A DNA stretch of 30,920 nt. It comes from an uncultured Bacteroides sp. (GTDB lineage Bacteria > Bacteroidota > Bacteroidia > Bacteroidales > JACABE01). The notes below the pieces were generated by a model. The model searched no databases, was not told the origin of the DNA, and was given only the letters and a program-made list of their open reading frames with translations. The translations under genes were made by a program, and so were the position numbers. The stretch lies in the NCBI GenBank assembly GCA_964437995.1, contig CAYTJB010000007.1, forward strand, positions 1 through 30,920, given 5' to 3'. Positions 2,833 through 20,091 of the stretch are shown piece by piece; positions within the stretch are counted from its first letter, which is position 1, and the number at the start of each line of letters is the position of its first letter.

Positions 2833-3231
2833 ATGCAAGCAATTATAATCCAACTTCCTAAAATTGAGGATGAACGCGGCAATCTTTCTTTTATTGAGGA
2901 AGAAAAACACATTCCTTTTAAAATTGAACGCACTTATTGGATATACGATGTGCCAGGTGGACAAATTAGAGGTGGTCATGCTTTTAAAGAACAGCAAGAA
3001 TTGATAGTGGCTCTTTCGGGTAGTTTTGATGTGATAGTAGATGATGGTAAACAAAAACAAACTTTTTCGCTAAACCGCTCTTACTATGGCTTATATATTC
3101 CAGCTGGTTTGTGGCGACAAATGGAAAATTTTTCTACTAATTCATTGGCATTGGTGCTAAGCTCTACACAATATAGCGTAGATGATTATATTTACGATTA
3201 TGAGCAGTTCTTAAAAATCTGTGTATTATGA
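2833..3231 (+). CDS. fdtA: dTDP-4-keto-6-deoxyhexose 3,4-ketoisomerase (FdtA/QdtA/WxcM-like cupin), copy 1
   Basis: DERGNLSFIE, RGGHAFK, SGSFDV, GLWRQMENFS and DDYIYDYEQF motifs. Confidence 0.85.
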   Translation: MQAIIIQLPKIEDERGNLSFIEEEKHIPFKIERTYWIYDVPGGQIRGGHAFKEQQELIVALSGSFDVIVDDGKQKQTFSLNRSYYGLYIPAGLWRQMENFSTNSLALVLSSTQYSVDDYIYDYEQFLKICVL

Positions 3232-3644
3232 AAAATAGCGTGAACGACTGTATAGTAATACCTTTAAACAAAATACACAATAGGGCTGGAAATATTACTA
3301 TAGTTGAAGGACAAGCGAAAATACCTTTTGAAGTAAAAAGAGTTTATTATCTTTACGACATACCAGGTGGCGAAGCTCGGGGTGGCCATGCTCATAAAGA
3401 ACTACAGCAGTTAATTGTTGCAGCAAGTGGTTCTTTTGATGTTTTACTTGATGATGGGTTAAATAAAAAAATAATAACACTCAATAGACCAGATTATGGA
3501 TTATTAGTAGTTCCGTGTATATGGCGTGAGCTTATGGCATTTTCTTCTGGAGCTATTTGTTTAGCAATTGCTTCAGAAAAATATAATGAAGATGATTATA
3601 TAAGAATCCACGAATCTTTTTTAGAATTTAGGAAAAATGATTGA
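3228..3644 (+). CDS. fdtA: dTDP-4-keto-6-deoxyhexose 3,4-ketoisomerase (FdtA/QdtA-like cupin), copy 2
   Basis: NRAGNITIVE, RVYYLYDIPGG, RGGHAHKEL, IWRELMAFSSG and YNEDDYIR motifs. ATGA overlap with copy 1. Confidence 0.85.
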   Translation: MKNSVNDCIVIPLNKIHNRAGNITIVEGQAKIPFEVKRVYYLYDIPGGEARGGHAHKELQQLIVAASGSFDVLLDDGLNKKIITLNRPDYGLLVVPCIWRELMAFSSGAICLAIASEKYNEDDYIRIHESFLEFRKND

Positions 3645-4575
3645 AGTTAGAAAATATACTGCTGATGAAAAAGCCAATTGGGATAAAATGCTTGCTTTTT
3701 CTAAAGCTGACACTTTCTTGTTTTATCGCGATTTTATGGATTATCATTCTGATAGATTTCGTGACAATTCATTTATGATTTACCGAAAAGGTAAATTGGA
3801 AGCTTTACTCCCGGGAAATATAAGTGGCAATATATTTTACTCACACCAAGGTTTAACTTATGGTGGTTTAATTTCAACTTTAAAAATCGCAACAGACGAT
3901 GTTATTCAATCATTTAAAACAATTAATAAGATATTAAAAGCTGATGGGATTACAGAAGTAATTTATAAACCACTTCCAACAATTTACCATCATTATCCAT
4001 CTCAAGAAGATATTTATGCTTTATTTCGGCTTGGTGCCGAAAAAATTGGATGTAATCTCTCATCAACAATATTTCAAAATAATAAATCTGCTTTTAACGA
4101 ATCTCGTAAAAGTGGTGTTAGGAAAGCCCAAAAAGAAGGTGTTCTTATTAAAGAATCTGAGAATTTTTCTGAGTTTTGGAAGGTTTTAGAAATTAATCTT
4201 TTAAAGCTTTACGAAAAAAAACCAGTTCATTCTCTTGATGAAATTATTTTTTTAAAATCAAAATTTCCTAATAACATAAAACTATACAATTGTTTAAAAG
4301 ATAATAAGGTTATTGGAGGCTGCCTATTGTTTATTATGAAAAATATTGTTCATGTACAATACATTTCAGCTAATGATACAGGTAAATCAATGGGTGCAAT
4401 TGATTTACTTTTTGATAAATTAATTAATGATTTATACCATCAAGTTCCAATTTTTGATTTCGGGCATTCTACTGAAAATATGGGTAATTTACTAAATGAA
4501 AACCTAATTTTTCAAAAAGAAGGATTTGGAGGGCGAGGAATTGCTTATGATATTTATAAATACAAAATTTTGTAA
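3637..4575 (+). CDS. GNAT/FemAB-like N-acyltransferase
   Basis: FLFYRDFMDYHSDRF, HQGLTYGG, FDFGHSTE and FQKEGFGGRG pattern typical of GNAT-fold proteins next to fdtA in Bacteroidota loci. Confidence 0.7.
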   Translation: MIEVRKYTADEKANWDKMLAFSKADTFLFYRDFMDYHSDRFRDNSFMIYRKGKLEALLPGNISGNIFYSHQGLTYGGLISTLKIATDDVIQSFKTINKILKADGITEVIYKPLPTIYHHYPSQEDIYALFRLGAEKIGCNLSSTIFQNNKSAFNESRKSGVRKAQKEGVLIKESENFSEFWKVLEINLLKLYEKKPVHSLDEIIFLKSKFPNNIKLYNCLKDNKVIGGCLLFIMKNIVHVQYISANDTGKSMGAIDLLFDKLINDLYHQVPIFDFGHSTENMGNLLNENLIFQKEGFGGRGIAYDIYKYKIL

Positions 4576-5484: not shown

Positions 5485-5988
5485 ATGAAATTTGCAAATA
5501 TAACTTTAGGTTCTGATGTAGAAATCGATCCTTCAACTTCTTTCAATAATGTAATTATTGGAGATTATGTCAAAATTGCCAAGCGATGCAGTATTTTTGG
5601 CAGCCCTAATAATTTGCTCGAAATAGGTGCAAATTCAATTATTTCGATGAATAGTATTATAAACGGTTTTGCAGCTAAAGTAACAATAGGGAAAAACGTT
5701 GGAATTGGTCAAAATACAAACATAATGGCTGACTCTGGACCAACTAATTCGCCAGAAATGTTAAAAGTTTTTCCACTCGAAAAGGGTCCTATAAATATTG
5801 GAGATCACTGTTGGATTGGTGCAAGTGTAATTATTATGCCTAATGTTTCATTAGGTAATTATTGTGTTGTGGCTGCAAATAGTTTTGTAAATAAATCTTT
5901 TCCTACATTCTCAATCATTGGCGGGAACCCTGCAAAATTGATACGAAATTTCACAAAAGAAGAAATAAAAAAAATTCAAGGGAAATGA
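5485..5988 (+). CDS. Hexapeptide-repeat (left-handed beta-helix) acyltransferase, candidate amino-sugar N-acyltransferase
   Basis: Repeated [LIV]G-x-x-x-x-[IV] hexapeptides, [18 protein letters not shown]. Confidence 0.8.
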
Positions 5989-7118
5989 TTAAATTTCTTG
6001 ACTTACAAAAAATAAATGCACAATATACCGAGGAACTCAAATCGGCATCAGCTCGAGTAATTGATAGTGGCTGGTACTTGTTGGGTAAGGAAGTAAAAAC
6101 CTTTGAATCTCATTTAGCAGAATTTGTTGGTGTAAAACATGCCATTGGTTTTGCTAATGGATTAGATGCCTTACGTTTAATACTAAAAGCCTACATAGAA
6201 ATGGGTGTAATGCAGGAAGGCGATGAAATTATTGTTCCTGCAAATACATATATTGCTTCTATATTGGCAATAACTGATAATCGGCTAAAGCCTGTTTTGG
6301 TTGAACCAAATATAAAAACCTATAATCTTGATATTTCTCTAATAGAACAACACATAACTTCTCGTACCCGTGCCATAATGGTTGTACATCTATACGGACA
6401 AGTATGCTGGAGTGAAGAAATGGAAGCTATTGCAAATAAGCATAATCTTAAAATTATTGAAGACAATGCACAAGCTATTGGAGCAAGCTACAGTTATCAG
6501 TCGTCGGATATAAAAAAGACAGGTACTTTAGGCGATGCAGCGGGTTTTAGCTTTTATCCTGGTAAAAATCTGGGTGCATTGGGCGATGCTGGAGCTGTTA
6601 CAACTAATAATGATGAATTAGCGGAAGTAATTCGTGCTTTAGGAAATTATGGAAGCAAACAAAAATACATTAATCATTATCAAGGTTTAAATAGCCGCTT
6701 AGATGAAATTCAAGCGGTTTTTTTGGATGTAAAATTAAAATATATTGATGCAGAAACCCAACGAAGAAGAGAAATTGCTCAGTATTATTGTGAAAACATT
6801 AAACACCCTGAAATAATTTTACCAATATTAGCTAACAGCCAACAGCTAATAGCTAATAATCATGTCTGGCATCTTTTCGTAATTAGAACAAAAAATCGCG
6901 AAAAACTACAAAACTATCTTACTCAAAATGATATCGAAACGCTAATTCATTATCCTATACCACCGCATAAACAACTTGCATATAAAGAATGGAATAAAAT
7001 AAATCTTCCAATAACAGAAAAAATTCACGATGAGGTGTTGAGTTTGCCAATAAGCCCTATTATGAAAAAAACTGAAGTAGAGTTTATTGTAAAAATTATA
7101 AATAATTACCAGTCATAA
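5985..7118 (+). CDS. fdtB: dTDP-3-amino-3,6-dideoxyhexose aminotransferase (FdtB/QdtB, DegT family)
   Basis: MIKFLDL start, [58 protein letters not shown]. Confidence 0.88.
6832..6859 (+). repeat. Heptamer tandem array CYAAYAG inside fdtB (4 units)
   Basis: CTAACAG CCAACAG CTAATAG CTAATAA, read directly; encodes ANSQQLIAN. Confidence 0.8.
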
Positions 7119-15874: not shown

Positions 15875-16894
15875 ATGTTTAAAAACAAGATTTTACTTAT
15901 CACTGGAGGTACAGGTTCTTTTGGTAACGCTGTACTCAACCGTTTTCTAAATACTGAAATTAAAGAAATTCGCATTTTTTCGCGTGACGAAAAAAAGCAA
16001 GACGACATGCGGCATAAATTGCAAAATTCAAAGTTAAAATTTTATATTGGCGATGTTCGCGATAAACAGAGTGTAGATGCCGTTATGAAAGATGTTGATT
16101 TTGTTTTTCATGCAGCAGCCTTGAAACAAGTTCCTTCCTGTGAATTTTTTCCAATGCAGGCGGTAAAAACCAATGTAATAGGAACAGAAAATGTATTAGA
16201 ATCTGCTATTTCGCATGGAGTAAAGAATGTTGTAGTTTTAAGTACAGATAAAGCATGTTACCCAATCAATGCAATGGGAATTAGCAAAGCAATGATGGAG
16301 AAAGTTGCCATTGCTAAAGGCAGAGCATTAGGGAAAAATGCAAACACAACAATCTGCTGCACACGCTATGGAAACGTAATGGCATCAAGAGGTTCTGTAA
16401 TTCCTTTGTTTATTGAGCAAATAAAAGCAGGAAAAAACCTCACAGTTACTGATCCGAATATGACCCGCTTTATGATGACATTGGAAGATGCAGTTGATTT
16501 GGTTATTTATGCGTGGGAACATGGGAAAAATGGCGACCTTTTTGTGCAAAAAGCACCAGCTGCAACCTTAGAAACTTTGACTAAAGCTATTATTTCTCTT
16601 TACAAATCTAACGTTACTGTAGGTGTAATAGGCACTCGTCATGGAGAAAAACTTTACGAAACATTGGTTACACGCGAAGAAATGTCTAATAGTAGGGATA
16701 TGGGTAAATATTTTTGTATTCCTTGCGATGCAAGAGATTTGAATTATGATAAATTTTTTATAGAAGGCGAAGAAGAAATTGCCAACATTGAAGATTATCA
16801 TTCTCATAATACTGAAAGATTAGATATTGAAGGCATGAAAAACTTGTTGTTGAAATTAGATGTGATAAGGGAAGATATTAATAATGATTGGTAA
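15875..16894 (+). CDS. fnlA: UDP-GlcNAc 4,6-dehydratase/5-epimerase (FnlA/WbjB/CapE)
   Basis: LITGGTGSFG, FSRDEKKQ, HAAALKQVPSCEF, STDKACYP, RYGNVMASRGSV, DLNYDKF, YHSHNT. Confidence 0.93.
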   Translation: MFKNKILLITGGTGSFGNAVLNRFLNTEIKEIRIFSRDEKKQDDMRHKLQNSKLKFYIGDVRDKQSVDAVMKDVDFVFHAAALKQVPSCEFFPMQAVKTNVIGTENVLESAISHGVKNVVVLSTDKACYPINAMGISKAMMEKVAIAKGRALGKNANTTICCTRYGNVMASRGSVIPLFIEQIKAGKNLTVTDPNMTRFMMTLEDAVDLVIYAWEHGKNGDLFVQKAPAATLETLTKAIISLYKSNVTVGVIGTRHGEKLYETLVTREEMSNSRDMGKYFCIPCDARDLNYDKFFIEGEEEIANIEDYHSHNTERLDIEGMKNLLLKLDVIREDINNDW

Positions 16895-16912
16895 TTTGTG
16901 ATTAGTAATTGG
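16885..16912 (+). repeat. Heptamer array (TRATTNG x4), left flank of four-helix-bundle gene 1
   Basis: TGATTGG TAATTTG TGATTAG TAATTGG; contains the last codon and stop of fnlA. Confidence 0.8.
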
Positions 16913-16933
16913 CAAAAAATCAAATCATAAAAA

Positions 16934-17294
16934 ATGAAAACGTATAAAGATTTAGATGTTTGGAAATTAAGTATAAATTTTGTTAGTGAAATTTATAAAA
17001 TTACAGTTGCGTTTCCTAAAGAAGAAATGTTTGGCATTGTTTCGCAAATGAGAAGGTCAGCAGTATCTATACCTTTTAATATTGCTGAAGGAGCAGCCAG
17101 AAACCATCCAAAAAGAATTTAAACAATTTTTGTATATTGCATTAGGAAGTGTATCTGAATTAAATACACAGCTTGTAATTTCTGAACAATTGGGCTATAT
17201 AAAACTTTCAGAAGTAGAAAAACTTATAAGCTCACTTGAAATAATTTCAAAAATGCTACAAGGACTTATTAGGTCAATAAAAAGTAATTTCTAA
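16934..17294 (+). pseudogene. Four helix bundle protein (23S rRNA IVS-protein family), frameshifted
   Basis: YKDLDVWK, FPKEEMFG, SQMRRSAVSIPxNIAEG in one frame; EFKQFLYIALGS-SEL-TQL in the +1 frame. The break is one extra A in the A5 run at 17110-17114; removing it gives a 119-aa ORF. Confidence 0.88.
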
Positions 17295-17319
17295 TTAACT
17301 AATTACCAATTACCATTCA
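17291..17319 (+). repeat. Heptamer array (CYAATYA x4), right flank of four-helix-bundle gene 1, inverted relative to 16885-16912
   Basis: CTAATTA A CTAATTA CCAATTA CCATTCA; contains the stop of the bundle gene and ends 3 bp before the fnlB ATG. Confidence 0.8.
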
Positions 17320-17322
17320 CTT

Positions 17323-18456
17323 ATGCTAAAGATAGGAATAACAGGACAAGCAGGGTTTGTCGGAACTCATTTGTTCAATACATTAAATCTTAAAAAAGAC
17401 GAATTTCTTACTATTCCTTTTGAAGATGAATTTTTTCAAAGTGAGGAAAAGTTAAAGTTTTTTGTTAAGCAATGTGATGTAATTGTGCATTTAGCAGCTA
17501 TGAATAGGCACAACGATGCCGAAGTAATTTATAATACAAATATTGAATTAGTTAAACAACTGATTGTAGCCTGTGAAGCCACAAATTCTAAACCACATAT
17601 CTTGTTTTCTTCATCAACACAAGAAGAAAGAGATAATTTATATGGAAAATCTAAAAAAGAAGGCAGACTTTTATTTGAACAGTGGGCAGCAAGAAACAAT
17701 GCTGTTTTTACAGGTTTAATAATACCTAACGTATTTGGACCTTTTGGACATCCTTATTATAATTCTGTAATTGCTACTTTTTGCCATCAACTCACACATA
17801 ACGAAACGCCCAAAATTGACATAGATGGCGAGTTAAAGCTCATTTACATTGACGAACTGATAAAAGAAATTCTCATACCAATTACCAATCACCAATCACT
17901 AATCACTAATTACCAATTACCAATTACTATTCCACACACCTCAACTATCAAAGTTTCCGATTTGCTTCAAAAGTTGAATACTATAAAAACAAACTATTTT
18001 GAAAAAGGAGAAATCCCATCTCTACAAAGCGATTTCGATAGAAATTTATTTATTACTTTTCTTTGCTATGTTGACCATAAAAGCTTTTTCCCGTTTATGC
18101 TGAAGAAAAACACTGATAACAGAGGCTCTTTTGTAGAAACAGTAAAGTTGAACAGTGGAGGGCAAATTTCATTTTCTACAACGGTTACGGGTATTACACG
18201 TGGTAATCATTTTCATACCCGCAAAGCCGAACGGTTTGCAGTAATTAAAGGAAAAGCATTGATTGAATTAAGAAAAATAGGATGCAATGAAGTTTTATCT
18301 TTTGAATTAGATGGAGAAAATCCTTCTTTTGTAGATATGCCTATTTGGTACACACATAATATCAAAAACATAGGAACTGAAGAATTGTATACTATTTTCT
18401 GGATCAATGAGCATTTTGATGCCAACGACCCGGATACTTTTTTTGAAGCTGTTTAA
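17323..18456 (+). CDS. fnlB: UDP-2-acetamido-2,6-dideoxy-hexulose reductase with C-terminal cupin (FnlB/WbjC/CapF)
   Basis: GITGQAGFVG, HLAAMNR, YGKSK, PNVFGPF-PYYNSVIATFC, DNRGSFVE, RGNHFHTRK, DMPIWYTHNI. Confidence 0.92.
   Translation: MLKIGITGQAGFVGTHLFNTLNLKKDEFLTIPFEDEFFQSEEKLKFFVKQCDVIVHLAAMNRHNDAEVIYNTNIELVKQLIVACEATNSKPHILFSSSTQEERDNLYGKSKKEGRLLFEQWAARNNAVFTGLIIPNVFGPFGHPYYNSVIATFCHQLTHNETPKIDIDGELKLIYIDELIKEILIPITNHQSLITNYQLPITIPHTSTIKVSDLLQKLNTIKTNYFEKGEIPSLQSDFDRNLFITFLCYVDHKSFFPFMLKKNTDNRGSFVETVKLNSGGQISFSTTVTGITRGNHFHTRKAERFAVIKGKALIELRKIGCNEVLSFELDGENPSFVDMPIWYTHNIKNIGTEELYTIFWINEHFDANDPDTFFEAV
17878..17926 (+). repeat. Heptamer tandem array CYAATYA x7 inside fnlB
   Basis: CCAATTA CCAATCA CCAATCA CTAATCA CTAATTA CCAATTA CCAATTA; encodes PITNHQSLITNYQLPI. 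Confidence 0.92.
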
Positions 18457-18460
18457 TAAA

Positions 18461-18488
18461 AGCTTTTAGCAATTAGCTTTTAGCTTGA
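18461..18488 (+). repeat. Heptamer array (AGCWDTT-type x4), left flank of four-helix-bundle gene 2
   Basis: AGCTTTT AGCAATT AGCTTTT AGCTTGA, starting 5 bp after the fnlB stop. Confidence 0.75.
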
Positions 18489-18539
18489 AATCAGTGGATT
18501 ATATTATGAATTTACTAAAACCGAAAAGCTAAAACTGAA

Positions 18540-18893
18540 ATGAAAGATTTTAGAACGCTATAGGTCTGGCAAAAAAGCCATTCATTAACAATAGATATAT
18601 ATCTTCTTACATAGGAAATACCTAAAAGTGAATTATATGGATTAACTTCACAAATAAGAAGAGCCGCATCTTCCATTCCTACAAATATTGCAGAAGGTTG
18701 TGGAAGAGGAAGCGACAAAGATTTTGCAAGATTTATTCAAATTGCTATGGGTTCTGCAAGCGAAATTTCTTATCTATTAATTTTGATTTCAGATTTAAAC
18801 TATATTGATAAATCAATTGCACTAAATATGATTGAGAAAGTAAACGAAATCATGAAAATGCTATCGGCTTTAATAAAAACACTAAAGAAATAA
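18540..18893 (+). pseudogene. Four helix bundle protein (23S rRNA IVS-protein family) with two in-frame TAG codons; absent from the ORF track
   Basis: Manual translation: MKDFRTL*VWQKSHSLTIDIYLLT*EIPKSELYGLTSQIRRAASSIPTNIAEGCGRGSDKDFARFIQIAMGSASEISYLLILISDLNYIDKSIALNMIEKVNEIMKMLSALIKTLKK. TAG at 18561 and 18612; TAA at 18891. Confidence 0.92.
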
Positions 18894-18907
18894 TTTTTAA
18901 ATGCACC

Positions 18908-18954
18908 CTATTAGCTGTTAGTTTCTAACAGCTAATAGCTAACAGCTAACAGCT
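18908..18954 (+). repeat. Heptamer array CTAAYAG with perfect 14-bp hairpin, right flank of four-helix-bundle gene 2
   Basis: CTATTAGCTGTTAG (18908-18921) TTT CTAACAGCTAATAG (18925-18938), then CTAACAG CTAACAG CT directly before the fnlC ATG. Confidence 0.9.
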
Positions 18955-20091
18955 ATGAAAAATTCCAAACTCAAAGTAATGACCGTAGTTGGTACACGTC
19001 CAGAGATTATCCGACTATCATGCGTATTGCAAAAATTAGATGCTTCCGAAGTTATTGACCATGTATTGGTTCACACCGGACAGAATTACGACTATGAATT
19101 AAACGAAGTATTTTTTGAAGATTTAGGCTTGCGAAAACCCGATTTCTTTTTAAATGCTGCTGGTGGTAATGCTACAACTACGGCAGGGCAAATACTAATC
19201 AGTATTGACGCTGTTTTGGAAGAAGTAAAACCCGATGCCTTCCTTGTATTGGGCGATACAAATAGTTGCTTATGTGCTATTGCTGCAAAGAAAAGACATA
19301 TTCCTATTTTTCACATGGAAGCTGGCAATCGTTGCTTCGACCAGCGTGTTCCCGAAGAAAGTAATCGTAAAATAGTAGATCATACAGCCGATATTAATCT
19401 TACTTACTCTGATATTGCAAGGGAATATTTATTACGAGAAGGCTTGCCAGCCGACAGAGTAATAAAAACAGGCAGTCCGATGTATGAAGTGCTTATGAAT
19501 TATATGCCAAAAATTAAGAAATCAAATATTATCGAGAAATTACAACTCAAAAAACAAGCATATTTTGTGGTTTCGGCACATAGAGAAGAAAATATTTCCT
19601 CTGAAAAGCATTTTTTAAATTTGGTAAATATTTTGAACCAAATAGCTGAAAAATACAATTATCCTGTAATTGTGAGTACTCATCCGCGTACAAGGAAAAT
19701 GATTGAAAAAACAGGTGTTAGCTTTCATAAAAATATCAATTTAATGAAGCCAATGGGCTTGAGTGATTACATTTCATTGCAAATGAATGCCACAGCCGTA
19801 TTATCTGATAGTGGAACTATTTCGGAAGAGTCGTCAATTCTAAATTTTAGAGCACTCAATATTCGTGAAGCTCATGAACGTCCCGAAGCTATGGAAGAAA
19901 CTTCGGTAATGATGGTTGGTTTAAATCCGGAAAGAGTAATGCAAGGCTTGGTACAATTGCAATACCAAAATATTGAAAACAGAAATTTCCGTCAGGTTAA
20001 TGATTACAGCATGCCTAATGTTTCTGACAAGGTAGTGAGAATTATTTTATCATATACCGATTATATTAAACGTGTAGTTTGGAGCGAGTAA
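18955..20091 (+). CDS. fnlC: UDP-N-acetylhexosamine 2-epimerase, non-hydrolysing (FnlC/WbjD/CapG)
   Basis: VVGTRPEIIR, HTGQNYD, GDTNS, HMEAGNR, HREEN, SDSGTISEE, ERPE; follows fnlA-fnlB. Confidence 0.92.
   Translation: MKNSKLKVMTVVGTRPEIIRLSCVLQKLDASEVIDHVLVHTGQNYDYELNEVFFEDLGLRKPDFFLNAAGGNATTTAGQILISIDAVLEEVKPDAFLVLGDTNSCLCAIAAKKRHIPIFHMEAGNRCFDQRVPEESNRKIVDHTADINLTYSDIAREYLLREGLPADRVIKTGSPMYEVLMNYMPKIKKSNIIEKLQLKKQAYFVVSAHREENISSEKHFLNLVNILNQIAEKYNYPVIVSTHPRTRKMIEKTGVSFHKNINLMKPMGLSDYISLQMNATAVLSDSGTISEESSILNFRALNIREAHERPEAMEETSVMMVGLNPERVMQGLVQLQYQNIENRNFRQVNDYSMPNVSDKVVRIILSYTDYIKRVVWSE

What the first reader, a model, noticed from the sequence alone, without database searches (positions are those of the whole stretch)
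16885..17319. Cassette 1 flanks can form a ~28-bp duplex enclosing the whole gene
Seen: the reverse complement of 17291-17319 (TGAATGG TAATTGG TAATTAG T TAATTAG) aligns to 16885-16912 (TGATTGG TAATTTG TGATTAG TAATTGG) with two mismatches, two G-U pairs and one bulge. The left flank can also pair with the longer array at 17878-17926 in fnlB. Inference: in mRNA this would loop out the bundle gene as an rRNA IVS does and bring the fnlA stop close to the fnlB start; in DNA it acts as terminal inverted repeats.
Basis: partly seen in the sequence, partly recalled or inferred. Interest (0 to 1): 0.62.

Follow-up and report, generated by a model that had tools for sequence, protein, structure and literature searches.

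The report
Hairpin-armed four-helix-bundle cassette between fnlA and fnlB
A decayed small gene of the kind found inside ribosomal-RNA intervening sequences sits between two sugar-synthesis genes, and mirror-image 7-base repeat arrays on either side can zip into a 26-pair stem around it; this layout is typical of the gene family, but how it works is still untested.

Summary
16885-16912 pairs with 17291-17319: 24 Watson-Crick pairs, 2 G-U pairs, 2 mismatches and 1 bulge. The stem is in the RNA MFE and centroid folds (z -3.75) and dominates the ensemble. The array inside fnlB (17878-17926) is an even better partner at equilibrium.

The stem is not a local oddity. It encloses a frameshifted PF05635/TIGR02436 gene. 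Of the 11 copies scored in this genome, 8 have flanks more inverted-repeat-like than 95% of control small ORFs, each with its own unit. So do 70 of 90 cassettes pooled with other phyla.

A same-genus relative keeps the cassette at the same junction with a 33-pair stem. Other relatives show an arm remnant, a different gene or a short empty spacer. The fnlB-fnlC junction holds three different cassettes in different genomes.

The arms evolve in concert: in one orthologous set the core changed TTAGC to TCAGC on the left and GCTAA to GCTGA on the right. Variable unit positions do not covary, and the G-U versus A-C test is inconclusive (87:64).

The closest match in print is the Coxiella 23S rRNA IVS, but this element lies in an mRNA operon.

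The parts
15875..16894 (+). fnlA (UDP-GlcNAc 4,6-dehydratase/5-epimerase). Its last three codons and its stop codon TAA (16892-16894) lie inside the left arm.
   Evidence: Polysacc_synt_2 3.3e-105; TIGR04130 FnlA 4.2e-172, 571.6 bits, below that model's curated cut-off of 730. The C-terminus reads ...REDINNDW*, against ...REDLGIK... in relatives without the cassette.
16885..16912 (+). Left arm: four heptamers, TGATTGG TAATTTG TGATTAG TAATTGG.
   Evidence: (I7).
16934..17294 (+). Four-helix-bundle gene HB1 (PF05635 / TIGR02436), split by one extra A in the A-run 17110-17114 with a premature TAA at 17120-17122. The stop of the restored frame (17292-17294) lies inside the right arm.
   Evidence: PF05635 2.6e-21 (profile 1-56) and 9.8e-13 (profile 55-106) for the two halves. 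The read-through protein scores NF008911 149 bits and TIGR02436 2.2e-38. The G001 orthologue is intact at 68% identity.
17291..17319 (+). Right arm (CTAATTA A CTAATTA CCAATTA CCATTCA), the reverse complement of the left arm. It ends 4 nt before the fnlB ATG.
17323..18456 (+). fnlB-type reductase (epimerase fold plus C-terminal cupin-like domain).
   Evidence: Polysacc_synt_C 5.3e-48 and Epimerase 2.5e-15; NF047837 9.4e-73, 245.2 bits, below that model's curated cut-off of 500.
17878..17926 (+). In-frame array of seven heptamers (ACCAATY/ACTAATY) that encodes the IPITNHQSLITNYQLPITI linker. It has the same unit family and orientation as the right arm and is the strongest thermodynamic partner of the left arm.
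   Evidence: TRF period 7, 7.4 copies; duplex -35.7 kcal/mol. Arrays occur at the same FnlB position in G001, G015 and G023 and are absent in G011 and G025.
18461..18486 (+). Cassette 2 left arm (AGCTTTT AGCAATT AGCTTTT AGCTT), a different unit family from cassette 1.
   Evidence: (I5, I6).
18541..18893 (+). Second four-helix-bundle gene, HB2, with two in-frame TAG codons.
   Evidence: PF05635 1.0e-39 with 2 TAG; frame translation. The G015 orthologue is intact at 78% identity.
18908..18954 (+). Cassette 2 right arm (CTAACAG/CTAATAG units), preceded by a short left-type unit that allows a local hairpin. It ends at the fnlC ATG.
18955..20091 (+). fnlC (UDP-GlcNAc 2-epimerase).
   Evidence: Epimerase_2 3.3e-95.

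Best explanation
Cassette 1 (16885-17319) is a decaying copy of an IVS-type foldback cassette: a promoter-less PF05635 four-helix-bundle gene bracketed by inverted arrays of a 7-nt unit. It sits co-directionally in the fnlA-fnlB intercistronic junction.

Shown:
- The arms are complementary and the long-range stem dominates predicted RNA folds.
- This architecture is a hallmark of the gene family in this genome and across phyla.
- In an orthologous set from other genomes, the two arms are kept as inverted copies by concerted evolution.
- The cassette is present, gutted, replaced or absent at the same junctions in relatives.
- The gene decays while the arms persist.

Inferred:
- In the polycistronic fnl transcript the arms zip into a 26-pair stem. 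This folds the 380-nt insert into a closed loop and places the fnlA stop next to the fnlB start.
- Such a stem would make the insert tolerable inside an operon in one of two ways. RNase III could cut the stem as it does in 23S rRNA IVSs (my odds about 0.35). Alternatively, ribosomes terminating at the fnlA stop could melt the stem and so expose the fnlB start.
- Spread at the DNA level uses the arms in some structure- or motif-dependent way that is not yet known.
- Pairing with the fnlB internal array is most likely incidental, a consequence of the shared unit family.
For: Stem:
- Folded as single-stranded DNA the same stem appears (z -2.77).

Family hallmark:
- 13 PF05635 matches, representing 11 gene copies, lie in the genome, and nearly all have upstream arrays with reverse-complement downstream arrays of copy-specific units.
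- HB flanks score a median of 28 against 19 for 414 control small ORFs (Mann-Whitney p 4e-6), and 8 of 11 exceed the control 95th percentile.
- In 90 cassettes (79 from many phyla, 11 own) the median inverted score is 36, the direct score 18 and the cross-locus null 16.
- Loop sizes are 347-518 nt and the arms abut neighbouring stop and start codons.
- The HB gene is co-directional with both neighbours in 38 loci and opposed to both in 3.

Orthology and turnover:
- G001 has the cassette at the same site with a 33-pair stem of -42.5 kcal/mol.
- At fnlA-fnlB, G015 keeps only a left-arm remnant, G011 has another gene and G022 has a 57-nt spacer.
- fnlB-fnlC holds HB2 with AGCnnTT arms in G000 and G015. 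In G001 it holds an HB1-like gene with GTGATGn arrays. In G023 it holds a GxxExxY gene with CACTAAG arms. In G025 there is only a 38-nt spacer.

Concerted arm evolution:
- Orthologous cassettes at one site carry TTAGC/GCTAA cores in one subgroup and TCAGC/GCTGA cores in the other.

Precedent and context:
- The Coxiella IVS has a 28-bp stem, heptamers, RNase III cuts mid-stem and a decaying ORF (PMC4990558).
- RNase III is encoded in this genome.
- No plus-strand terminator-like site lies in 16700-19100.
Against:
- In 8 orthologous cassettes from other genomes, with arms of the same unit family as cassette 2, the variable unit positions do not covary: 47 of 80 cells are paired against a null of 48.6. 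Pairing is therefore confined to the conserved 5-nt cores, which fits a repeated binding motif as well as it fits a stem.
- G-U versus A-C mismatches are 87:64 (p 0.07). That excess could also come from strand-biased mutation.
- Such stems carry a mismatch or internal loop roughly every 5-8 pairs and are AU-rich, so they may be poor RNase III substrates.
- The genome holds 568 arrays of period 6-10, 64% of them intergenic, so arrays exist independently of the gene.
- At equilibrium the left arm prefers the fnlB array.
- One copy, on contig C241, has direct rather than inverted flanking arrays.
Confidence: 0.55

Rival explanations
1. The arms are inverted arrays of a protein-binding motif, like iterons or transposon ends, that act in DNA. 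A factor recognises the 5-nt core in each unit on both sides and mediates insertion, excision or copy-out. That factor could be the four-helix-bundle pentamer itself, a GxxExxY nuclease acting in trans, or a host enzyme. RNA pairing would then be a by-product.
For: - Only the unit cores are conserved and they change in concert on both arms, while the variable positions do not covary.
- The 5' arm is G-rich in 56 of 64 non-redundant cassettes and carries AG far more often than CT (274 vs 109; TAG 94 vs CTA 32). The units therefore have a fixed orientation relative to the cassette interior, as transposon ends do.
- Cassettes are gained, lost and replaced at the same junctions.
- A second cargo family with a nuclease fold (GxxExxY) has the same layout.
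- Closer protein relatives share arm units.
Against: - There is no recombinase or transposase in the cassette, and PF05635 has no known catalytic activity.
- No target-site duplication is seen at cassette 1 in G000 or G001.
- Units differ between copies, so one factor could not serve them all.
- Both HB genes in this operon are broken and the arms persist.
- No movement between near-identical genomes was observed here.
Confidence: 0.3
2. The pairing is incidental. Heptamer arrays arise and spread by replication slippage and local gene conversion throughout this AT-rich genome, and a small gene merely happens to sit between two arrays of one family. The stem has no role in RNA or DNA.
For: - The genome holds 568 arrays, many of them gene-less and 153 of them inside ORFs.
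- The same unit families recur nearby in coding sequence: the fnlB linker at 17878-17926 and an array at 6829-6858.
- Flanks of random small ORFs also share 12-mers with many arrays.
- Unrelated windows reach -25.6 kcal/mol against the left arm.
Against: - Inverted, matched arms are specifically enriched around PF05635 genes compared with control ORFs (p 4e-6). They are also enriched over direct-repeat and cross-locus nulls in many phyla with quite different base composition.
- Arm position relative to neighbouring stops and starts is sharply peaked.
- The G001 orthologue keeps the stem.
- The arm cores co-vary.
Confidence: 0.07
3. The functional partner of the left arm is the fnlB internal array, not the right flank. 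A 1-kb long-range pairing, or recombination between these arrays, would switch fnlB expression. This could work through direct-repeat deletion between 17291-17319 and 17878-17926, or through inversion between 16885-16912 and 17878-17926.
For: - The left arm pairs best with the fnlB array (-35.7 vs -27.3 kcal/mol).
- G001 shows the same pattern (-40.0 kcal/mol).
- The right arm and the fnlB array are direct repeats of 82-86% identity over 28 nt (D1).
Against: - The array lies inside a translated ORF, where ribosomes would keep it unpaired, and the right arm is transcribed about 560 nt earlier.
- Arrays at this linker exist in G015 and G023, which lack a matching cassette 1 stem.
- The repeats are short and imperfect for homologous recombination.
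Confidence: 0.05

Closest known systems
ORF-bearing intervening sequences (IVS) of 23S rRNA, e.g. the Coxiella burnetii helix-45 IVS and the Leptospira IVS (PMC4990558)
   Same: - Same protein family in the loop (S23p = PF05635).
- Nearly the same size: 428 nt there, 435 nt here.
- A terminal inverted-repeat stem of about 28 bp with a mismatch and a bulge.
- Tandem heptamers next to the ORF start, with variable copy number.
- An ORF undergoing decay while the RNA structure persists.
   Different: - This element lies between protein-coding genes of a polysaccharide operon, not in an rRNA helix.
- Both arms are entirely tandem heptamers.
- RNase III excision is demonstrated for the IVS and is untested here.
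- Cleavage here would separate two cistrons rather than fragment rRNA.
REP/REPIN elements with RAYT genes (PMC3733652), and Ssn nucleases framed by their NTS repeats (PMC11893778)
   Same: A small gene flanked by inverted copies of a short repeat that also occurs in hundreds of gene-less copies in the same genome.
   Different: - RAYT is a Y1 transposase and Ssn is a GIY-YIG ssDNA nuclease, each with demonstrated activity on its repeat. PF05635 has no known catalytic activity.
- The repeats here are tandem 7-9-nt units that differ between gene copies, not one genome-wide palindrome.
Short tandem heptamer arrays of Cyanobacteria, Beggiatoaceae and Bacteroidetes (TAACTGA arrays, PMC4679880)
   Same: Intergenic tandem heptamer arrays lying close to start codons, with a patchy phylogenetic distribution and unknown function.
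   Different: That paper describes mostly direct arrays and draws no link to a four-helix-bundle gene or to an inverted partner array.
Avd of diversity-generating retroelements
   Same: A distant member of the same four-helix-bundle superfamily (NF033474, E 3.3e-4, 20.9 bits against a cut-off of 80).
   Different: There is no reverse transcriptase, template repeat or variable repeat nearby, and the score is far below the family cut-off.

Membership tests
PF05635 / TIGR02436 four-helix-bundle (23S rRNA IVS protein) family | Match to the family HMM above the curated cut-off over the full length. | tested here: met
   The two halves score 76.3 and 48.7 bits against a cut-off of 33.8 and cover profile positions 1-56 and 55-106. 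The read-through protein scores TIGR02436 130.8 bits (cut-off 24) and NF008911 149.2 bits (cut-off 137). The gene is broken by a +1 frameshift.
23S rRNA intervening sequence (IVS) | Inserted in a helix (9, 25 or 45) of a 23S rRNA gene. | tested here: not met
   The flanking genes are fnlA and fnlB. Twenty related armed loci gave no Rfam match at gathering score, so no rRNA surrounds them.
23S rRNA intervening sequence (IVS) | Terminal complementary sequences that form a long stem enclosing the element. | tested here: met
   A 26-pair stem is present in the MFE and centroid folds, with z -3.75.
23S rRNA intervening sequence (IVS) | Excised from the precursor RNA by RNase III without religation. 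| not testable with these tools
The only relevant result is that an RNase III gene is present (177.3 bits, cut-off 166.25).
Classical TIR transposon / MITE | Terminal inverted repeats shared by the copies of one genome, plus a target-site duplication. | tested here: not met
   Arm units differ between most of the copies in this genome. No direct duplication flanks the arms in G000 or G001.
Classical TIR transposon / MITE | A transposase encoded by an autonomous copy. | tested here: not met
   The only ORF between the arms is the PF05635 gene.
REP/RAYT-like (REPIN) system | A gene flanked by inverted repeats that also occur as many gene-less copies with the same sequence. | tested here: inconclusive
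   Of 553 distant arrays, 189 share at least two exact 12-mers with HB flanks, against 65 +/- 33 for flanks of random small ORFs. This is an enrichment, but arrays are ubiquitous and the control level is high.
REP/RAYT-like (REPIN) system | The flanked gene is a Y1 (HUH) transposase. | tested here: not met
   The gene is PF05635, with no HUH domain hit.

The most novel reading that the evidence does not exclude
Four-helix-bundle (PF05635) and GxxExxY (PF13366) genes with inverted short-unit arrays would form one class of promoter-less foldback cassettes.
- They would colonise transcribed junctions; 23S rRNA IVSs would be the copies that landed in rRNA.
- Their arms would be kept complementary by concerted evolution because the transcript stem is processed, by RNase III or by ribosome-driven melting. 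This would insulate host operons from the insert.
- The fnl operon would then be a hotspot where three different cassettes have occupied the same junction in different lineages.
Probability: 0.3. Interest if true: 0.8.

Novelty: new variant of a known kind. Interest (0 to 1): 0.5.

Why it matters
The function of the PF05635 family and the origin of rRNA intervening sequences are both long-standing open questions. So is the meaning of the abundant 7-nt arrays in Bacteroidota, Cyanobacteria and other groups.

This locus ties all three together in an ordinary operon and offers natural controls:
- an orthologous filled site;
- a gutted site;
- empty sites;
- a junction occupied by three different cassettes;
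- an in-frame copy of the arm unit.

If the stem is processed in mRNA, these cassettes would be a widespread and unannotated source of operon mRNA processing sites. If the arms act in DNA, they would define a mobile element that carries no recognisable recombinase. Either way, annotators should treat the arrays and the small gene as one unit.

Tried and rejected

2. Literature. Searches linking PF05635, TIGR02436 or 'intervening sequence protein' to heptamer repeats found no paper that describes operon cassettes. MacGregor 2015 describes heptamer arrays without the gene link.

3. G-U versus A-C asymmetry as a test of RNA-strand selection gave 87:64, p 0.07, and a per-locus sign test gave p 0.47. 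The result is inconclusive and is confounded by strand-biased mutation, so I did not spend more calls enlarging the sample.

4. Hypothesis that left arms act as frame-independent translation stops. Stop-triplet density is higher in the left arm than the right in 35 loci and lower in 21 (p 0.08). Not supported.

5. Covariation at variable unit positions in 8 orthologous cassettes: none found.

6. Whether the best-armed relatives lie in rRNA: no Rfam hits in 20 loci.

7. Unit matching between HB arms and the genome's solo arrays. With 7-mers the null was too high to be useful. With 12-mers the enrichment is moderate.

8. The search for close orthologues of HB1 in 185,579 species genomes returned nothing above 56% identity. 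The tool notes that records of the window's own genome or one very near it may be left out, and the G001 orthologue (68% identity) was indeed found only through the genome search. The covariation test specific to cassette 1 is therefore limited to G000 against G001, whose arrays differ in unit order and number and cannot be aligned column by column.

9. Intrinsic terminator or sigma-70-type promoter inside the cassette: nothing above shuffle expectation on the plus strand.
Full report
WHAT IS THERE. The window is contig C7 of a 3.18-Mb, 32% GC draft genome of 408 contigs. The finding lies in a long co-directional polysaccharide locus.
- fnlA is at 15875-16894 (Polysacc_synt_2 3.3e-105; TIGR04130 4.2e-172, though its 571.6 bits are below that model's curated cut-off of 730).
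- fnlB is at 17323-18456 (Polysacc_synt_C 5.3e-48; NF047837 9.4e-73, 245.2 bits against a cut-off of 500).
- fnlC is at 18955-20091 (Epimerase_2 3.3e-95).
- Between fnlA and fnlB lies a PF05635/TIGR02436 four-helix-bundle gene, the '23S rRNA intervening sequence protein' family. It is split into 16934-17122 and 17082-17294 by one extra A in the run 17110-17114. Read through, it scores above the cut-off of NCBIfam subfamily NF008911.
- Between fnlB and fnlC lies a second copy at 18541-18893 with two in-frame TAG codons.

CHECK OF THE OBSERVATION.
- 16885-16912 (TGATTGG TAATTTG TGATTAG TAATTGG) pairs with 17291-17319 through 24 Watson-Crick and 2 G-U pairs. There are two mismatches (16888/17316 and 16897/17307) and one bulged base (17297).
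- RNAduplex gives -24.9 kcal/mol, or -27.3 with wider flanks. None of 1000 dinucleotide shuffles reaches this.
- Folding 16875-17330 as RNA puts the stem in both the MFE and the centroid structure (z -3.75).
- In the ensemble about 25 of the 28 left-arm bases pair with the right flank, whether 16860-17340 or 16700-17500 is folded.
- The second claim also holds. The left arm pairs better still with the in-frame heptamer array at 17878-17926 in fnlB (-35.7 kcal/mol) and switches to it at equilibrium when that region is included.
- Caveat: in this AT-rich sequence unrelated windows reach -25.6 kcal/mol. The inverted-alignment score of 31 lies between the 95th (25) and 99th (34.7) percentiles of 414 control small ORFs. 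The locus taken alone is only moderately exceptional.

IT IS A FAMILY HALLMARK.
- The genome gives 13 PF05635 matches, which represent 11 gene copies because three copies are split by frameshifts or a gap. Printing their flanks shows, for nearly every copy, a tandem array of 7-9-nt units upstream and its reverse complement downstream. The unit differs from copy to copy (for example GCGACAAGT, AAAGTTT, TTAATTG, AGTACTTA, AGCTTTT).
- Scored with a mismatch-neutral local alignment, HB flanks have a median of 28 against 19 for controls (Mann-Whitney p 4e-6), and 8 of 11 exceed the control 95th percentile.
- A scan of one genome per species returned 80 loci from many phyla, including Omnitrophota, Planctomycetota, Alphaproteobacteria, Bacteroidales and Patescibacteria. 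Pooled with the own copies (90 cassettes), the median inverted score is 36, the direct score 18 and the cross-locus null 16. Seventy cassettes score 30 or more.
- In those 70 the loop is 347-518 nt. Fifty-nine have a same-strand upstream stop near the outer end of the left arm, most within about 10 nt. Fifty-nine have a same-strand start near the end of the right arm, most 0-20 nt beyond it.
- Where both neighbours could be called, the HB gene is co-directional with both in 38 loci and opposed to both in 3.
- None of the 20 best-armed loci lies in rRNA.

RELATIVES OF THIS LOCUS. FnlB homologues were found in 7 of 60 related genomes, and six loci were fetched.
- fnlA-fnlB junction:
  - G001 (same genus) has an intact orthologous HB (68% identity). 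Its arms are of the same unit family and form a 33-pair stem of -42.5 kcal/mol in the MFE. Its fnlA stop is again supplied by the first unit.
  - G015 (another genus) keeps only a left-arm-like array in a 164-nt spacer.
  - G011 (same genus) has an unrelated gene there.
  - G023 has other repeats.
  - G022 has a 57-nt spacer.
- fnlB-fnlC junction:
  - G000 and G015 share HB2 (78% identity) with AGCnnTT arms.
  - G001 instead has an HB1-like, frameshifted gene. It is preceded by about 200 nt of GTGATGn units followed directly by about 190 nt of the inverse units, with a further inverse array after the gene.
  - G023 has a GxxExxY gene (TIGR04256, 9.3e-42) between CACTAAG-type inverted arrays.
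  - G025 has a 38-nt spacer.
- The same junction has thus been occupied by three different cassettes, which argues for repeated gain or replacement at the DNA level.

THE fnlB ARRAY.
- The 49-nt array encodes part of the linker between the Rossmann and cupin-like domains (IPITNHQSLITNYQLPITI).
- Arrays of the same CCAATCA family sit at the same position in G001, G015 and G023. In G023, FnlB is only 64% identical.
- G015 additionally has an AGCnnTT array there.
- G011 and G025 have none.
- This linker is therefore a hotspot for in-frame arrays. Its ability to pair with the cassette 1 left arm is most simply a consequence of the shared unit family. Ribosomes translating fnlB, and the earlier transcription of the right arm, would both favour the left-right stem.

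RNA STEM OR DNA MOTIF? I ran four tests.
1. Among transition mismatches in 68 non-redundant arm pairs, those that give G-U on the sense RNA number 87 and those that give A-C number 64 (p 0.07). This is a weak trend that strand-biased mutation could also produce.
2. In eight orthologous cassettes (arms AGCnnTT; both flanks 82-96% identical) the 5-nt cores are invariant. The variable positions show no covariation: 47 of 80 cells are paired against a null of 48.6.
3. In a second orthologous set, one subgroup has TTAGC cores on the left and GCTAA on the right, while the other has TCAGC and GCTGA. This is a concerted, complementary change of all units on both arms.
4. The 5' arm is G-rich in 56 of 64 cassettes and carries AG far more often than CT (274:109). 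The units therefore have a fixed orientation relative to the cassette interior.
Together these results show that the arms are maintained as inverted copies. They do not decide between selection on pairing (in RNA or in single-stranded DNA) and recognition of a repeated core motif.

CONTEXT IN THE GENOME.
- TRF finds 568 arrays of period 6-10 with at least three copies. Of these, 64% are intergenic, although only about 21% of the genome is non-coding.
- Gene-less inverted array pairs with loops of 9-135 nt exist.
- About a third of the arrays that lie far from HB genes share exact 12-mers with HB flanks: 189 against 65 +/- 33 for control flanks.
- GxxExxY genes in this genome (C317, C312) are enclosed by near-perfect arms of 37-44 nt.

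COMPARISON WITH WHAT IS KNOWN.
- The closest described object is the ORF-bearing 23S rRNA IVS. In Coxiella burnetii it is 428 nt long and has a 28-bp stem with one mismatch and one bulge. It carries two or three tandem heptamers (GACAGAT) before the S23p start codon. RNase III cuts it mid-stem, and its ORF is undergoing reductive evolution. The authors conclude that the RNA matters more than the protein (PMC4990558).
- Cassette 1 matches all of these sequence features, and this genome encodes RNase III. It fails the defining location test because it is in an mRNA operon, and excision is untested. I therefore call it a new variant of a known kind and not a member of that family.
- REP/RAYT and Ssn/NTS systems (PMC3733652, PMC11893778) are functional analogies only.
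- I found no paper describing PF05635 cassettes with heptamer arms in operons. Earlier notes of this scan report the same architecture in many genomes. I used them as leads and re-tested the points listed under earlier findings.

MECHANISM I COMMIT TO. Overall confidence is 0.55. Cassette 1 is a decaying IVS-type foldback cassette.
- In the fnl polycistronic RNA its arms form the 26-pair stem. The stem contains the fnlA stop (16892-16894) and the HB stop (17292-17294), and it ends 4 nt before the fnlB AUG.
- The stem makes the insert tolerable in one of two ways. RNase III may cut mid-stem; this would leave the fnlA stop intact and give fnlB a leader of roughly 18 nt (odds about 0.35). Otherwise, ribosomes terminating in the left arm would free the right arm and expose the fnlB start.
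- Spread and replacement occur in DNA by an unknown mechanism that depends on the arms.
- Shown: the sequence architecture, its recurrence, turnover at the junctions and concerted arm evolution. Inferred: folding in vivo, cleavage, translational coupling and the mode of mobility.

Noticed in passing
own genome C317:1003-1413 and C312:1611-1992; L005 (G023) about 3750-4350: GxxExxY (TIGR04256 / PF13366, PD-(D/E)XK fold) genes are enclosed by near-perfect inverted arrays of 8-9-nt units (ACCACTAAGACACTAAG..., ACCACAGAGACACAGAG...). In G023 one such cassette occupies the fnlB-fnlC junction that holds a four-helix-bundle cassette in this window.
   Followed up: partly
window 17878-17926, and the same FnlB position in L001, L002 and L005: The FnlB interdomain linker is a hotspot for in-frame heptamer arrays (ITNHQSP/ITNYQLP peptide repeats) in at least four genomes from three or more genera. 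G015 carries two different unit families side by side there.
   Followed up: partly
L001 (G001) 3195-3990: At the fnlB-fnlC junction there are about 200 nt of GTGATGn heptamers, followed directly by about 190 nt of the inverse units. A frameshifted HB1-like gene comes next, and then a further inverse array. This is a very large array expansion at a site that has short arms in this window.
   Followed up: partly
L044, L049-L051, L053 versus L025, L036, L037, L068 (cassette flanks): Orthologous cassettes at one chromosomal site switched the arm core from TTAGC/GCTAA to TCAGC/GCTGA in all units of both arms. This is a concerted compensatory change.
   Followed up: yes
window 18541-18893: HB2 is interrupted only by two TAG codons. 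They fall where the G015 orthologue has Leu codons, and the frame is otherwise intact (PF05635 1.0e-39).
   Followed up: partly
window 17110-17114: The HB1 frameshift is one extra A in a five-A run. It could be a real mutation or an assembly error in this draft genome, and reads could not be checked.
   Followed up: no
whole genome (G000): The genome holds 568 tandem arrays of period 6-10 with at least 3 copies; 64% are intergenic and 153 lie mostly inside ORFs. The commonest unit, AAACTTTAT (37 arrays), is the arm unit of the HB copy on contig C315.
   Followed up: partly
own genome C241:284-1570: One HB copy has direct, not inverted, flanking arrays (GAAGTCG family). The inverted partner array lies about 740 nt away, beyond a neighbouring open reading frame of about 176 codons.
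   Followed up: partly
window 6829-6858: A period-7 array (TAGCTAA, 4.3 copies) of the same unit family as the right arm of cassette 2 lies about 12 kb upstream, within the ORF at 5985-7118.
   Followed up: no
own genome C112:1244-1582: A Cas2-like small ORF (identified by eye, not by an HMM search) is flanked by copies of a palindrome (TTCATCAGATGAC...GTCATCAGATGAA). It scored high in the control set for inverted flanks.
   Followed up: no
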